DNA of 64,000 nt, counting the filler, from Sphacelaria rigidula (Eukaryota): the NCBI GenBank assembly GCA_964200075.2. It is 8 parts of 8 records of this genome, joined end to end, with 100 filler letters (N's around TTAATTAATTAA, not from the genome) between each part and the next. Parts side by side here need not be neighbours in the genome. Positions count along the whole stretch, not along the records: positions 16,029 to 23,942 come from CAXNAA020012991.1; 7 more parts are not named here. One strand, given 5' to 3'. The translations under genes and the position numbers were made by a program. The stretch's first letter is position 1, and each line of letters begins with the position of its first letter. The notes beneath the pieces are model-generated. The model was not told the origin of the DNA. It did no database searches and saw only the letters and a program-made list of their open reading frames with translations. Below are positions 16,090-21,034 of the stretch, piece by piece.

Positions 16090-19000
16090 ACGAGGATGAA
16101 CTCCTCCGCTCCCTGTTGCTTCTTCCGAACCTGAACATCCACCTCGTTGGTTCCGCTCCACGGTATGGCACCGATCACCATAGTCAATAACACATGCATC
16201 ACCTGATCTGTGTGTATGGACGTTACCATCCAGCTACTCAGGGTACCAACGGTCGCGTATTCCTTGTAGTGCACAATCAGGTGAGTCGTGGCCAGCTCCC
16301 CCTCACCGATGTGGGCACCAGGCATACGCCTCGGGTCGCCATGCCCCCAAACCAGCGCATCAGGTGCATCGCCGGGGTGACTGGCGGCAGCTCCTTCCTG
16401 CCCCAATCCTGCGCAGCCTGTGCCGCCGACACCACCAGATACACTGCCGCCGCCCGCCGTACGTCGCGAAAGTGCCATATCGGCGGCACTCCTCCCACTC
16501 CGCCCGGCCGTCCCCGTCTCGGCATTGCCGGAAACCGCTACTCCAGGTGCGGCGCAAAAGGCCGCACCGGACATGGCCTCGCCGCCTGAATACCGGCGGC
16601 CGGGACCACTTGCCGCAAGGCCCACGGGCACGTTCACGCGACGCGTGCGTAGCACTTGGGGCGTGGAGACCCGGGCGGCGCCGCCACAGGCCGGGTCACG
16701 TTTCCGACTGGTTCCCACGATACCCCCGCAGATGGGGGCGCGGAGGGGGGGCACACCCTCTGCGAGTGTGGCCCCTCTCGTATCACTGTAGCCTGGCTGG
16801 ACGTTTTGCGAGCTGGGCGCTGCAATCATGACAGGACGTCGATATGTTGGCGACGGTTGTTGGGGGTCAGGGAGTGCAGCTGACGGCGGAGTTCCTTCCG
16901 GCGTTGGTAGGACCGGGTGCACTGAAAGAGGCCATGATATACCGGTAAAGGTGAATGTCGCGTCCCCCATCCGGCCTTTGCCGTCCTCGTGCTCGACGAA
17001 GTACTTGCAGATGGCCGCAGCAATATGTCTGGAAGTCGCCGCCGGTCGGGATTTCGTCGGAAGAGGCGGGGTCGAACACACCATAGGAACCGACGAGGGC
17101 GGCTTTTCGACCGGCTTGTTCTGCAGCTTTAATCGGCGGCACGAGCGGCGAGTAGTCATACCACAAACCAACGAAAGTGGCCCCGAACGCCGAATACTCG
17201 GCGAGGATTTTATCCCTGAACTCCGGCACCAGTGCCACCGCACCGACGTTGAGGACACTGGACGGGGGTGTTCGGTGGAGTTCTGTCGCCAAGTCGACAA
17301 CAGAAGCGTGCACTGAGCCATGCGGCGAAGGTTGGACGGCATCCGCGCACTCGCCGAGCATGAATTATCGTACTCCCTTTGACTTATTTGCTTTGCGGCC
17401 GCCCCCGTCGCCGGCGTGTGCCAGCTCCAGAGGCAACACCGCACCAAGGCTGTGCTTGAGTATCGCCAATTCCTCCGCCGTTCGCACGCGCGCACTGCTC
17501 AGTATATCGGCCAGGATGGCGTGATATGCCTTTCCCTGGAGGGTTAAGTCTTTGTAGCCCTTCTGTAGCGAACTTTTCCTTTCTGGCTTCTTTGAAGCTT
17601 TCGTGGTCGTGTTTTGTGCCTTGAACACGGGGAAAGTGGTCTTCTTCAGTCGTCCTCCGTTTGGGCCCCCCTTGGCCACCACCGTGAGGACGTCGTCCCA
17701 CCTTTCTGACGATATCTTCTTTGCCGCCGACATTTTCTTCTGGTCCTCTGCGTTTACCACCATTGGACTGAAGGACTTCAACTTGTCTGCTCCCACCTGT
17801 GAGAATGCGGTGCACTTCCGCACGAATGTCAAGACCTTCTGCACCGCCTCCGCCCTGTCCCTGATAAGCTTCGCTGTGCCAGCGCGCTCCTTCCGATCTC
17901 GATACAGCTGGTAGTCAACTGCGTTCACGGCTGCTTGCCGGCTCTCGCAAATCGGAGCCAACTTGTTTATGAACCCGGGGGTGATCCTACCGATCGCTGA
18001 TTTCACCACCTTATTGGTCATCTCATGATACTCGTCGAGGGCGACATTGTGATGTTCTCGTCCGGCGAAACTGGCAGAGAATAATGTACCCGTCGACTTG
18101 GGAGATGTGATTTGCGCACAAACGTTGGTATCACAGCTTCTGGGTAAGGGTGAAGACGGGCGCGGCCTCTCTCAGTGACGCAGTCCTTAGGCAGTAATCC
18201 CTAACCCGTGTGCCCATCCGGAACCCCAGATACGCCGGGTAGTGATCCAGGAGGAACGGCAGCCAAAATCTCAGGGTCACGTGGTTGGAGGCCCGCTCCC
18301 GGAGCCACGACACCACGTCTTCTCCCTCACGGCTTGCATCAACACCCTTCTCCGTCTCGTATTTCTCGATGATCACACACCACATTGCTTCGAACGTGAC
18401 GGTGAGGAAGTGATGACTCCTCCGGTGCTTCTTCCCCGCCCCTGCGTGCTTGTCGTCGCCGCCGAGCAATTTAGCAATGCTCTCGATCCCTGCCCCCCAA
18501 TACAACACCAGCAAAGCCTGCGTCAGATGAAGCATGAGATGCCATCCGCCAGGGTGGGGGACGATATTGCGCCATCTGGTAAGGTTAGAAGCCATGGCGT
18601 TCACCATGAAACTATACGTCTCCTCATCCCCCTCGATCAAAACCACACGGCCCTTCTCGCCCTCGGCGTGGAAAATCTGCAACATCCGCTCCAGTGTCTT
18701 CTCGTTGTCAGCTTCGCACGTTGTCGACCCAGACTGGACGAACAGGTTCTGGGACACGAGATCGCGCCCCCCATGATCCAGCTCCTTCACCAATTCGGCC
18801 TCCAGGCATGATCGTCCGGGGCCATTTGTCTTCAAGTATCCAGGGCTCCGCGCTACCGTCGAAGCCAACAGGGTACTCCACCTCTCCATACTATGTTTGT
18901 GTCCGGCACGATCCCGCCCTCGCTTCAGCAAGTCGAGTGTCACGTCCTTGGTTTTCATCCACAAATCCTTGCTCCCGAAAGTAGCAGGTGGGATCAGGGG

Positions 19001-21034
19001 CAGACGGGGGTGATGCGCGGTGGCCCCTATGAATGAGCAGTGTTCCGCCGAGAGGTATTTCGCGTGAGGGTCGCAGTCGTTGTTGTCGAACGCTGCCGAG
19101 ACGCCGATGTTGCGGTCCGCCGGGATGAGGTCCTCATCCTTTCTAGTCGCCACCACATTCTCATGATCCCACCTCTGCTTGTCAGACATGCAAATGTTTA
19201 ACGCCGACAGTAGGCGCGTAATCTTCTCCCCCGCTCCATGCGATTTCAAGGCCTGGGACAACTGCAAGTAGTGATTGGGCATGAAGGATTTTCGTAGAAC
19301 CTTGTTCGCCATCATCGTACCCAACATGTAGGTGAACACGGCATCTTCCGAATACTGGTCGGCATCTGCAGCGGTTTCCCGCGTGGTCGCGTCCAAGTTT
19401 ATCCCACATACTGAGACGATGAACGTCGTCAGCTCAGGGGGGAAGGTGTTACGGACGTACCTTTTCACGTCGGGAGTCCGCATCCCAGCGGCAAAGGACT
19501 CACCTTTGGGAAATCGTGCATTAGCCCATTTCGAACATTAAAACATGCTCGCCCGCAACATCCTCGCCACCGTGTTTATCACCCCCACATTCCCGTCCCC
19601 ATCACCTGCCGGAGCTTGCTCCGGAGCACCAGTGCACCCCCCCTGATCCGCCGCACGTGAAACCGCTGCTTCCCGTCTGTTCTTCTCACGCCGAAGCTCG
19701 CGCTCACTGGCGTAGAGATTCGCAATCCACCACTCATCGAATACGAGCGGAATGAGCACCCTAATTTTCCGCCTGTCGTCTTGACCGACAACACCCCCAT
19801 AGAAGGAGAGGTCACGAACGCCGCTGACAGCGGAGGCGACCCAGTCGAGGATTGTGGTGGCGTCCTTACTCAAAGTCGTCTCGACAACATCGTTGAATCC
19901 CGCTCGGCTACGCGCCTGCCGCACAATATTGATGGCGTCGCCCAGATCGAGGAAGCGCCCGGCGGCAATCTCGGCGACCACGTTTCGCGTAGCAATGTGA
20001 GAAGCGGCGGCGGCCGCCCCTCTCCCAGGAGCGTCGGAGGTGTCGAGGTGCAGGAGGTATTGGTCTACCGTCCACTTGCCGTCCTCTCCCCTCTTGAACA
20101 AGGTACTCTCAACTTCCCTGGTAAATCTCCAGACGCAGCTTTTGCAGAGGCGACTGTCTGCGCGTAGATTGATGCTGTCCCCACCCCGGTGCTTTTCCCC
20201 AGCATCCGTCGCTCGAAAGAATTCTTGCATGAGTCGAAATGTTTCCCCGGCTCTCTTCAACTTCGTCTTTGACGCCCGGCAGCATGCTTGACACTTTACC
20301 GCCGACCGCTCTGCCTTCCGCTTATCTCTCTTTCGGGGGGCATAGAAGCAATCGGGGGCAGTACACAGGCACCCGCGACTCGACACCCAACCCGGCACGA
20401 CGGTAGTCTCTGCCGCCGCGCCTGTCGCTGCCATCCGATCCCAAAATTCCGCCGCGTCGGCGACGGCGTCGTCGGGAAGATGCCGAAACTGGGGTTCGGA
20501 GCCTTGTGTGACCGGCGGCCGGCGGTGGCACGCGCAGCACAACAAATTGAAGAAGTGCACGGGATTACCGGGACACACCGGACAGGGTGTCGGCCACGCT
20601 TCCGTGGCACCACAAACCGCCTTTCCGCATGCCAACGACACCCGTTTCCGCCTTTTGGGAGTATGCACGTCGACCTGCCCAGCGTGCGGTTCTTCTGTAG
20701 AGGTGGGTGGCGCCGGCCGTTGCCCCCCCATGAGGAACCCCGGCAGCATTCCCGCAATACCTCCTCCTCGCGCCGTAGACTGTCGGCGACTGCGTCGGCG
20801 GGTGCCGCCCGCTGCCGACGGCATGCTCTCGCCGACGGCGTCAGGTGTGCCATCGCTGGTGATACCCGGCGACGGTGCACCGCCGGAAGTGGCATCACGA
20901 TCACACCGCGCCAAGTGGGGTGAACGCTGGACCGACGCGTCCCTCCTCTCATCCGCCGACATACAGCCGGGTGGGCAGGGGGGGGGGTCCCCTTCCGCTA
21001 CTGGAGATGGCGGCCCCTCTTCGCCGATGCCCAC
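16090..21034 (-). mobile_element. Decayed AcademX-like DNA transposon ORF (Cys-rich N-terminus + DDE transposase + XPG/PIN-like nuclease), about 1650 codons
   Basis: ORFs 19538-21034, 18131-19483, 17365-18021, 16867-17361 and part of 15981-17495 join through in-frame stops (19538-40, 18131-33, 17365-67) and frameshifts (~18090, ~17040). Ordered motifs: AAFDNND, EGDEETY, PGGWHLMLH, GAGIE..GKKHRR, TLRFW..YLGFRMGTR, NVALDEYHEMTNK, LPLELA..DGGGRKANKS, VVDLA, LWYDY..PIKAAEQAGR, HIGEGEL, SIHTDQV. Confidence 0.75.

What the first reader, a model, noticed from the sequence alone, without database searches (positions are those of the whole stretch)
16090..21034. AcademX-like transposase-XPG/PIN fusion transposon in an apparent brown alga
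Seen: five minus-strand ORFs reassemble into one ~1650-codon frame via three in-frame stops and two frameshifts. Its order is a Cys-rich N-terminus, then DNND / GDEETY / GGWH / FW..F..R / ALDEYHE, then VVDLA / WYDY..PIK.AE..R / GEGE / TDQ. Established: Academ elements of the AcademX type encode a DDE transposase fused to an XPG-like nuclease, and are to my knowledge described mostly from animals and a few other lineages. Inference: this is a divergent stramenopile Academ lineage. It uses GEGE (XRN-like) where I would expect EEAD, and has a ~230-aa Pro/Ala/Gly-rich insertion inside the nuclease domain.
Basis: partly seen in the sequence, partly recalled or inferred. Interest (0 to 1): 0.75.

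Follow-up and report, generated by a model that had tools for sequence, protein, structure and literature searches.

The report
Dead Academ-type transposon in brown alga
This is a broken, cut-off copy of a jumping gene of the rare Academ kind, whose single protein joins a DNA-cutting transposase to a second nuclease; it extends this kind to brown algae but is itself inactive.

Summary
On the minus strand, 16090-21046 reads as one ~1650-codon frame broken by three in-frame stops (19538-40, 18131-33, 17365-67) and two frame-shifting deletions (near 18094 and 17023).

The interpretation largely holds too.
- Transposase: it passes Pfam DUF6589 (28.1 bits, cut-off 27). Four motif blocks of a published Academ RNase H-like profile each rank 1st to 3rd of ~128,000 six-frame positions, in the right order.
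- Fusion: relatives carry the transposase and the next domain in one open frame.
- Nuclease: modelled from 27 relatives (pLDDT 76.7), that domain is a FEN-superfamily 5' nuclease. It lies nearest to XRN1/XRN2 (Foldseek E 1.2e-6, Z 13.6), then EXO1, GEN1, FEN1 and XPG (Z 11.6-9.6). No Pfam XPG or XRN model detects it.
- Host: 21 of 29 nuclease relatives carry brown-algal names (20 Ectocarpus, 1 Scytosiphon), and the family is multi-copy in the runs that hold it.

This copy is dead. It ends at 16090 against an unrelated, very abundant repeat, so it lacks the nuclease's last part, the C-terminal Cys cluster and one terminus. Terminal repeats and target duplications could not be tested.

It is a new member of a known kind, of moderate interest. 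This scan had not recorded it before.

The parts
16090..21046 (-). Degraded, 3'-truncated ORF of an Academ-type transposon: Cys-rich N-terminus, DDE transposase, linker, 5' nuclease
19541..20962 (-). N-terminal region from the first ATG, with Cys clusters at 20561-20629 and 20336-20371; presumed zinc-binding DNA-recognition part (inferred)
   Evidence: P0002 shares it. No Pfam family.
19538..19540 (-). In-frame TAA stop. Other copies read G at 19540, which gives CAA (Gln).
   Evidence: X1 23.7 of 39.1, X2 279.7 of 356.2, X4 70.6 of 70.6 depth
19058..19093 (-). First catalytic block (F-D-N-N-D-x-D-P), matching positions 1-12 of the Academ profile
   Evidence: 18.1 bits, rank 1 of 127,930; runner-up 10.8 bits
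18593..18646 (-). Second catalytic block (G-D-E-E-T-Y), matching Academ profile positions 185-202
   Evidence: 14.2 bits, rank 2 of 127,894
18449..18568 (-). V-P-x-x-G-G-W-H, then G-A-G-I-E..A 15 residues on; matches Academ profile positions 214-253 without gaps
   Evidence: 15.4 bits, rank 1 of 127,762 (runner-up 15.2). The DUF6589 match covers this part.
18131..18133 (-). In-frame TGA stop where relatives have Arg
18093..18095 (-). Frameshift 1: about 11 codons present in relatives (P0001, P0005, P0009) are missing
18013..18057 (-). Third catalytic block (L-D-E-x-x-E-M), matching the near-invariant D450 and E454 of the Academ profile
   Evidence: 16.2 bits, rank 3 of 127,912
17365..17367 (-). 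In-frame TAA stop in the linker just before the nuclease
17023..17364 (-). Nuclease N-terminal part: first acidic motif (V-D-L-A) and second (Y-D..P-P-I-K..E..R)
   Evidence: fold
17023..17024 (-). Frameshift 2: a 29-nt deletion relative to other copies
   Evidence: P0045 keeps the missing residues; records 17 and 25 (29 extra letters each)
16359..16940 (-). 194-aa Gly/Ala/Pro/Ser-rich loop (53% G+A+P+S) in a variable surface loop of the nuclease
   Evidence: P0045 shares its start in frame. The equivalent loop has low confidence in the model (residues 211-237).
16092..16358 (-). Nuclease middle part: G-E-G-E motif and H-T-D (D-T-D in intact relatives). It ends before the last acidic motif (G-C-D-F/Y).
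16030..16089 (.). Unrelated, extremely abundant repeat that truncates the copy. Not part of the element.
   Evidence: summed depth 91,591 against 36-306 in the next bins (X1); 93 (X2) and 86 (X4) loose ends at 16089

Best explanation
It is a dead, truncated copy of a cut-and-paste DNA transposon of the Academ superfamily, of the AcademX type, sitting in a brown-algal genome.

The intact element encodes one long protein with these parts in order:
- a Cys-rich N-terminus, presumably for recognising the element's ends;
- a DDE (RNase H-like) transposase;
- a linker of about 250 aa;
- a FEN/XRN-type 5' nuclease;
- in relatives, a C-terminal Cys cluster.

Shown here: the domain identities, their order in one ORF, the multi-copy state, and the decay of this copy.

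Inferred: the transposase cuts the 3' ends and joins them to the target. The fused 5' nuclease cuts or trims the other strand (5' ends or flaps). The element therefore leaves as double-stranded DNA, much as Tn7 uses TnsA beside TnsB.

This copy cannot do any of that, for four reasons:
- three stop codons;
- two frame-shifting deletions;
- His in place of one active-site Asp;
- loss of everything beyond 16090.
For: Transposase:
- DUF6589, E 1e-6, 28.1 bits against a cut-off of 27. Relatives also match it.
- I read 176 of the 465 positions of RNase_H_Academ.hmm in the supplement of PMC5751038.
- Four ungapped blocks, 85 positions in all, were scored over all six frames of the 64-kb window. They give 18.1, 14.2, 15.4 and 16.2 bits at ranks 1, 2, 1 and 3 of about 128,000 positions each.
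- All four lie on the minus strand, in profile order, within 1.1 kb.
- 28 of 30 named Atlas clusters nearest to the transposase carry DUF6589, from Basidiomycota and Cnidaria (a lead only).

Fusion:
- P0005 (865 aa), P0077 and P0070 run from the transposase into the nuclease in one ORF.

Nuclease:
- The model of P0061 with 26 relatives has pLDDT 76.7 and pTM 0.78.
- Foldseek gives 20 matches at E <= 0.001, all XRN1, XRN2 or Rat1, the best at 1.2e-6. FEN1 follows at 1.2e-3 and EXO1 at 2.3e-3.
- In VIA-align against 48,161 chains, the top 17 are all FEN-superfamily nucleases: XRN1 Z 13.6 (273 aligned, rmsd 3.5), EXO1 11.6, XPG 9.6. Rank 18 drops to 5.5.
- Five acidic motifs are conserved in the family alignment.

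Mobile and multi-copy:
- Up to 23-24 distinct contigs per run cover single sites, with 85-99% likeness.
- 8 different proteins come from one Ectocarpus strain.

Host:
- 21 of 29 relatives have brown-algal names.
Against: - No terminal inverted repeats or target-site duplication could be found. One end is missing, and no other copy's DNA could be fetched.
- Only part of the Academ profile was read. Three of the four blocks are not individually separated from the best chance hits, so the case rests on their joint colinearity and on the first block.
- No Repbase AcademX protein was compared, so placement inside AcademX is unproven.
- No Pfam XPG_N, XPG_I or XRN_N hit at E <= 1 in the 38 proteins scanned.
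- A profile of the nuclease found nothing in PDB sequences.
- The role of the nuclease in transposition is inference only.
Confidence: 0.85

Rival explanations
1. It belongs to a separate, undescribed sister lineage of Academ-like (DUF6589-type) transposons. That lineage gained an XRN-like nuclease on its own, and is not a member of the described AcademX lineage with its XPG-type nuclease.
For: - The nuclease is nearest in fold to XRN1/2, not XPG.
- It escapes every Pfam XPG model.
- All 21 named relatives are brown-algal.
- Identity to the Academ profile is confined to motif blocks.
Against: - The XRN-to-EXO1 difference is only about 2 Z units.
- Domain order and single-ORF fusion fit what is written of AcademX (passage in PMC10045372).
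- I could not see any AcademX nuclease, so it may look just the same.
Confidence: 0.1
2. It is a pseudogene of a domesticated, transposase-derived host gene, not a transposon copy.
For: One Ectocarpus relative is named 'expressed unknown protein' (P0069). No termini were seen.
Against: - There are many diverged copies in each run that holds it, and 8 distinct proteins in one Ectocarpus strain.
- This copy carries five disabling lesions and a truncation.
- The whole 7.9-kb piece is repeat-rich.
Confidence: 0.03
3. It is a fragment of an integrated giant virus (phaeovirus-like) that carries a transposase-nuclease gene.
For: Brown-algal genomes hold integrated phaeoviruses (recalled). EsV-1-7 repeats lie in another piece of the window.
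Against: - No viral gene lies in the piece.
- No relative was found in 2.9 million viral contigs.
- The EsV-1-7 repeats are on a different piece of the window, joined only by a spacer.
Confidence: 0.02

Closest known systems
AcademX lineage of the Academ superfamily (Kapitonov and Jurka 2010, Repbase Reports; Kojima 2020, Mob DNA 11:15). Neither text is held; I know them from citing passages in PMC10045372, PMC5751038 and PMC10799480, and from recall.
   Same: - DDE transposase with the Academ D1, D2 and D(3)E motif blocks.
- A nuclease of the XPG/FEN superfamily on the same protein.
- No helicase seen.
- A long element: the coding part alone exceeds 5 kb, against a mean of 5,565 bp for 100 curated bivalve Academ elements (PMC10294476).
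   Different: - The host is a brown alga. I recall reports from animals, fungi and one red alga.
- The nuclease is closer in fold to XRN1/2 than to XPG and is invisible to Pfam XPG models.
- It has a variable low-complexity loop inside the nuclease.
- The TSD of 3-4 bp could not be checked.
AcademH lineage (helicase-encoding Academ of fungi and animals)
   Same: Same transposase family; DUF6589-type clusters from Basidiomycota are the nearest named Atlas clusters.
   Different: No helicase ORF lies in the 7.9-kb piece, and a nuclease is fused instead. AcademH makes 9-10 bp TSDs (PMC10045372 passage).
XRN1 / XRN2 (Rat1) 5'-3' exoribonucleases
   Same: Best structural match over about 275 residues, model residues 43-417 on XRN1 residues 3-330, with a G-E-x-E acidic motif.
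   Different: About 10-13% identity. No Pfam XRN_N hit. None of the XRN C-terminal domains; it is fused to a transposase. The substrate is presumably DNA.
Harbinger/ISL2EU transposons of green picoalgae that carry an EXO1-like XPG nuclease
   Same: An algal DDE transposon that travels with its own FEN-superfamily 5' nuclease.
   Different: A different transposase superfamily. The nuclease is a separate gene there and is recognisable as XPG-N/XPG-I; here it is fused and divergent.
Tn7 TnsA/TnsB
   Same: The logic of two nucleases, one for each strand, at the transposon ends (works-like analogy only).
   Different: Unrelated folds for the second nuclease, separate proteins, and bacterial.

Membership tests
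Academ superfamily | RNase H-like DDE catalytic domain that matches the Academ profile (D1 'D-N-x-D..P', D2 'G-D-x-x-x-Y', 'D-x-x-x-E' third block) | tested here: met
   Blocks from RNase_H_Academ.hmm (supplement of PMC5751038) score 18.1, 14.2, 15.4 and 16.2 bits, at ranks 1, 2, 1 and 3 of about 128,000 six-frame positions, and are colinear. Only 85 of 465 positions were scored, with no gapped full-profile E-value.
Academ superfamily | Pfam DUF6589. Its link to Academ is my inference, from its fungal and animal range and its overlap with the same region. | tested here: met
   E 1e-6, 28.1 bits against a cut-off of 27.
Academ superfamily | Terminal inverted repeats | not testable with these tools
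   The copy is truncated at 16090, the upstream end is undefined, and no DNA of other copies could be fetched.
Academ superfamily | Repetitive, dispersed copies | tested here: met
   12-24 distinct contigs at single sites in runs X1, X2 and X4; 8 proteins from one Ectocarpus strain.
AcademX lineage | Transposase and XPG-type nuclease in a single protein | tested here: met
   P0005, P0077 and P0070 span both parts. The fold is FEN superfamily.
AcademX lineage | Target-site duplication of 3 or 4 bp | not testable with these tools
   No terminus is identified. The feature is as stated in PMC10045372.
AcademX lineage | Clusters with Repbase AcademX transposases in a tree | not tested
AcademX lineage | No helicase gene | tested here: inconclusive
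   There is none among the ORFs of 16030-23942, but the element is incomplete.
XPG/FEN1/EXO1 family (Pfam XPG_N, XPG_I) | Match to the Pfam XPG_N / XPG_I models | tested here: not met
   No hit at E <= 1 (E <= 10 for 3 proteins) in the window pieces and 33 relatives.
XPG/FEN1/EXO1 family (Pfam XPG_N, XPG_I) | PIN-like core plus H3TH fold | tested here: met
   EXO1 Z 11.6, GEN1 10.1, FEN1 9.8 and 9.6, XPG 9.6.
FEN superfamily (all) | Set of conserved active-site carboxylates in the canonical order | tested here: met
   The family alignment shows D, D, E-x-E, D-x-D and D motifs. In the window copy, the first Asp of D-x-D is His and the last motif is lost. Equivalence to FEN1 residues is inferred from order, not from superposition.
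XRN1/XRN2 family | Closest fold | tested here: met
   Foldseek ranks 1-20 are all XRN1, XRN2 or Rat1, best E 1.2e-6. Z is 13.6-11.9 for the top five.
XRN1/XRN2 family | Match to Pfam XRN_N, or sequence similarity to solved XRN chains | tested here: not met
   No Pfam hit. A profile of the nuclease finds no PDB sequence at E <= 10.

The most novel reading that the evidence does not exclude
The nuclease that rides on these Academ transposases is not an XPG derivative. It is a DNA-acting cousin of the XRN1/XRN2 exoribonucleases. Brown algae would then hold a transposon-borne branch of the XRN lineage, or a second, independent fusion of an Academ transposase with a 5' nuclease. That would bear on where XRN enzymes, or the AcademX module, came from.
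Probability: 0.2. Interest if true: 0.6.

Novelty: new member of a known kind. Interest (0 to 1): 0.4.

Why it matters
Academ is one of the least studied superfamilies of eukaryotic DNA transposons.

- It shows a sizeable, multi-copy Academ family with a fused 5' nuclease in brown algae. This widens the known host range to stramenopiles.
- It explains a set of Ectocarpus and Scytosiphon gene models now labelled 'unnamed' or 'hypothetical'.
- It offers intact relatives for asking what the second nuclease does in transposition.
- It shows that the nuclease is XRN-like in fold and invisible to Pfam, so domain-based transposon annotation will miss it.

The copy in the window has no function of its own.

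Tried and rejected
- Own genome: none is held.
- DNA of other copies: two metagenome scans and one viral-contig scan found pattern matches (182, 164 and 79) but no relative. One alignment was unsuitable and one call got no answer (repeated).
- Termini: the inverted-repeat search within the piece gave only a 179-nt foldback at 21779-22201 and short pairs that are probably chance. No terminus could be called.
- Sequence-level links of the nuclease: PDB by single sequence gave only a chance IFT122 match at E 0.67. A PDB search with a profile of the nuclease found 0 hits. Pfam gave none.
- First nuclease model (P0019, 17 sequences) was poor, at pLDDT 59.5. XRN1 was already on top but weak (E 0.12, Z 5.3). 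The second model superseded it.
- Papers: Kojima 2020 and Yuan and Wessler 2011 are not held.
- Print search: Academ with 'brown alga', 'brown algae' or 'Ectocarpus' found no paper describing Academ in brown algae. The one paper holding both words (PMC3627910) mentions Academ only for a RecQ helicase. Repbase Reports are not in the library, so this is weak evidence of absence from print.
- Expression: no RNA holder is listed. Run X6 is only guessed to be RNA.
- Joint 16089 to 20936: sides of only 23-24 letters, so left unexplained.
- A domesticated host gene and a viral origin were considered and rejected; see the rival explanations.
- No complex prediction was attempted.
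Full report
**Setting.** The window is not one stretch of genome. It is eight pieces of about 7.9 kb joined by N-spacers. The finding lies at the low end of the piece 16029-23942. No whole genome is held for it.

**The observation.** One search lists the five minus-strand ORFs. Comparison with relatives and motif mapping place the breaks.
- In-frame TAA at 19538-40.
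- In-frame TGA at 18131-33, where relatives have Arg.
- A frameshift at 18093-95, where about 11 codons found in P0001, P0005 and P0009 are absent.
- In-frame TAA at 17365-67.
- A frameshift at 17023-24, where about 9 codons kept in P0045 are absent.

Two contigs from two runs span the last site, and each carries 29 extra letters (records 17 and 25). At 19540 other copies read G, which turns the stop into Gln.

**The start at 16090.** This coordinate is a real boundary. In three runs, 16030-16089 belongs to a repeat hundreds of times more abundant than what follows, and many contigs diverge there. The protein homology also stops there. Relatives continue with the last third of the nuclease and about 300 further residues (P0057, P0059).

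**The transposase.**
- The 468-aa ORF passes Pfam DUF6589 (28.1 bits, cut-off 27), and several relatives match the same model more weakly.
- No paper held links DUF6589 to a transposon.
- The supplement of PMC5751038 holds the authors' HMMER profile RNase_H_Academ (465 positions, 44 sequences). I read positions 1-49, 178-253 and 407-457.
- Its best-conserved columns are a D-N-x-D..P block at the start, a G-D-x-x-x-Y block, a V-P..G..H block followed 15 residues later by G-x-G-x-E..A, and a near-invariant D-x-x-x-E near the end.
- I scored four ungapped blocks (85 positions) over every position of all six frames of the window. The expected sites rank 1st (18.1 bits, runner-up 10.8), 2nd (14.2), 1st (15.4, runner-up 15.2) and 3rd (16.2) of about 128,000.
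- Taken singly, three of the four blocks are no better than the best chance hits.
- Taken together they lie on one strand, in profile order, within 1.1 kb. By my rough estimate (inference) chance gives this far less often than once in 100,000.
- No other Pfam transposase family matched.

**The fusion.** P0005 (865 aa), P0077 (Scytosiphon) and P0070 (Ectocarpus) each run in one open frame from the transposase, through a linker of about 250 aa, into the first motifs of the next domain.

**The nuclease.**
- Neither the window pieces nor 33 relatives hit any Pfam nuclease model. A profile of the domain finds no PDB sequence.
- A first model from a shallow alignment was poor, yet XRN1 was already on top.
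- A profile search then brought in 29 relatives. With these, a model of P0061 reached pLDDT 76.7 and pTM 0.78.
- In Foldseek, all 20 matches at E <= 0.001 are XRN1, XRN2 or Rat1, the best at 1.2e-6. FEN1 follows at 1.2e-3 and EXO1 at 2.3e-3.
- In VIA-align against 48,161 chains, the top 17 are all 5' nucleases of the FEN superfamily: XRN1 Z 13.6, 12.9, 12.3 and 12.2, Rat1 11.9, EXO1 11.6, GEN1 10.1, FEN1 9.8 and 9.6, XPG 9.6, T5 exonuclease 9.2. Rank 18 drops to 5.5.
- The family alignment keeps five acidic motifs in the canonical order.
- In this copy one Asp of the D-x-D motif is His, and the last motif is lost.

**The insertion.** The spacing between the strand before the loop and the G-E-x-E motif is 59-65 aa in 9 relatives, 88 in 2, and 215 in the window. 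The loop itself is 194 aa, of which 53% is Gly, Ala, Pro or Ser. P0045 shares its first part in frame. It sits where the model has a low-confidence surface loop. Open frames are common in this GC-rich DNA, so whether all of it is coding stays open.

**Host and copy number.**
- 21 of the 29 nuclease relatives are named: 20 from Ectocarpus species and strains and one from Scytosiphon promiscuus. 8 come from a single Ectocarpus strain.
- The runs that hold the window's DNA are labelled 'organism A' and 'algae metagenome'.
- Within them, single sites of the element are covered by up to 23-24 different contigs at 85-99% likeness.
- Another piece of the window carries EsV-1-7 repeats. I recall these as typical of brown algae and their viruses.
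- This is a repeat family, not a single-copy gene.

**Mechanism.** The parts and their order are shown. That the DDE domain makes the 3' cuts and strand transfer follows from what is established for DDE transposases. That the fused nuclease deals with the 5' strand is inference, in line with the remark quoted in PMC10045372 that the two Academ lineages differ in target duplication length according to the accessory enzyme.

**What stays open.**
- Terminal repeats, target duplication, the upstream end of the element, and placement among Repbase Academ families.
- The flank 21046-23942 is itself repetitive and holds a nested foldback insertion.
- No paper in the library describes Academ in brown algae. 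Repbase Reports and the two key papers are not held, so prior description cannot be excluded.

**Verdict.** It is a new brown-algal member of a known, little-studied transposon superfamily. The copy is dead. Interest is moderate.

Noticed in passing
window 4251-6243 (+): Two overlapping ORFs made of EsV-1-7 cysteine-rich repeats (Pfam PF19114, E 9.6e-95 and 4.8e-46). I recall this repeat family as expanded in brown algae and present in Ectocarpus virus EsV-1.
   Followed up: partly
window 56100-57773 (-): A 558-aa open frame with a weak integrase core match (rve, E 8.3e-6, 26.4 bits, below the cut-off of 32.6). Probably a decayed retroelement or other integrase-bearing element.
   Followed up: no
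window 8001-15900: A long tract of strongly skewed composition (GC skew -0.42 to -0.67, GC 36-40%). Its plus-strand frames read endless Ser/Ile/Asn/Gln-like repeats, so it looks like satellite or minisatellite DNA.
   Followed up: no
window 16030-16089 and 23686-23942: Extremely abundant repeats in the runs that hold the window (summed word depth about 9e4 to 1.8e6, against hundreds nearby). The first one truncates the transposon copy, and a similar stretch in inverse orientation seems to lie near 15790 in the neighbouring piece.
   Followed up: partly
window 21709-22326: This segment is absent from other copies of the surrounding repeat (joint 21708 to 22327 in runs X1, X2 and X4). It contains a 179-nt inverted repeat (21779-21957 / 22023-22201, 79% complementary), so it looks like a nested foldback or MITE-like insertion. 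A second joint, 21495 to 21943, occurs in all four runs.
   Followed up: partly
window 16089 / 20936: One contig in each of four runs joins 16089 to 20936, skipping 4846 bases (almost exactly the transposon ORF), but with only 23-24 matching letters on the shorter side. Unexplained; it may be a repeat artefact.
   Followed up: no
relatives P0057, P0059, P0058, P0063 (C-termini): Beyond the nuclease, intact relatives carry a dense Cys cluster of the C-x-C kind and an acidic tail. No Pfam hit. One of the nearest Atlas clusters (molluscs) carries the TCR/CXC family in 36% of its members. The window copy has lost this part.
   Followed up: partly
whole window: The 64-kb window is eight pieces of about 7.9 kb joined by N44-TTAATTAATTAA-N44 spacers, so neighbouring pieces need not be neighbours in the genome.
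   Followed up: yes
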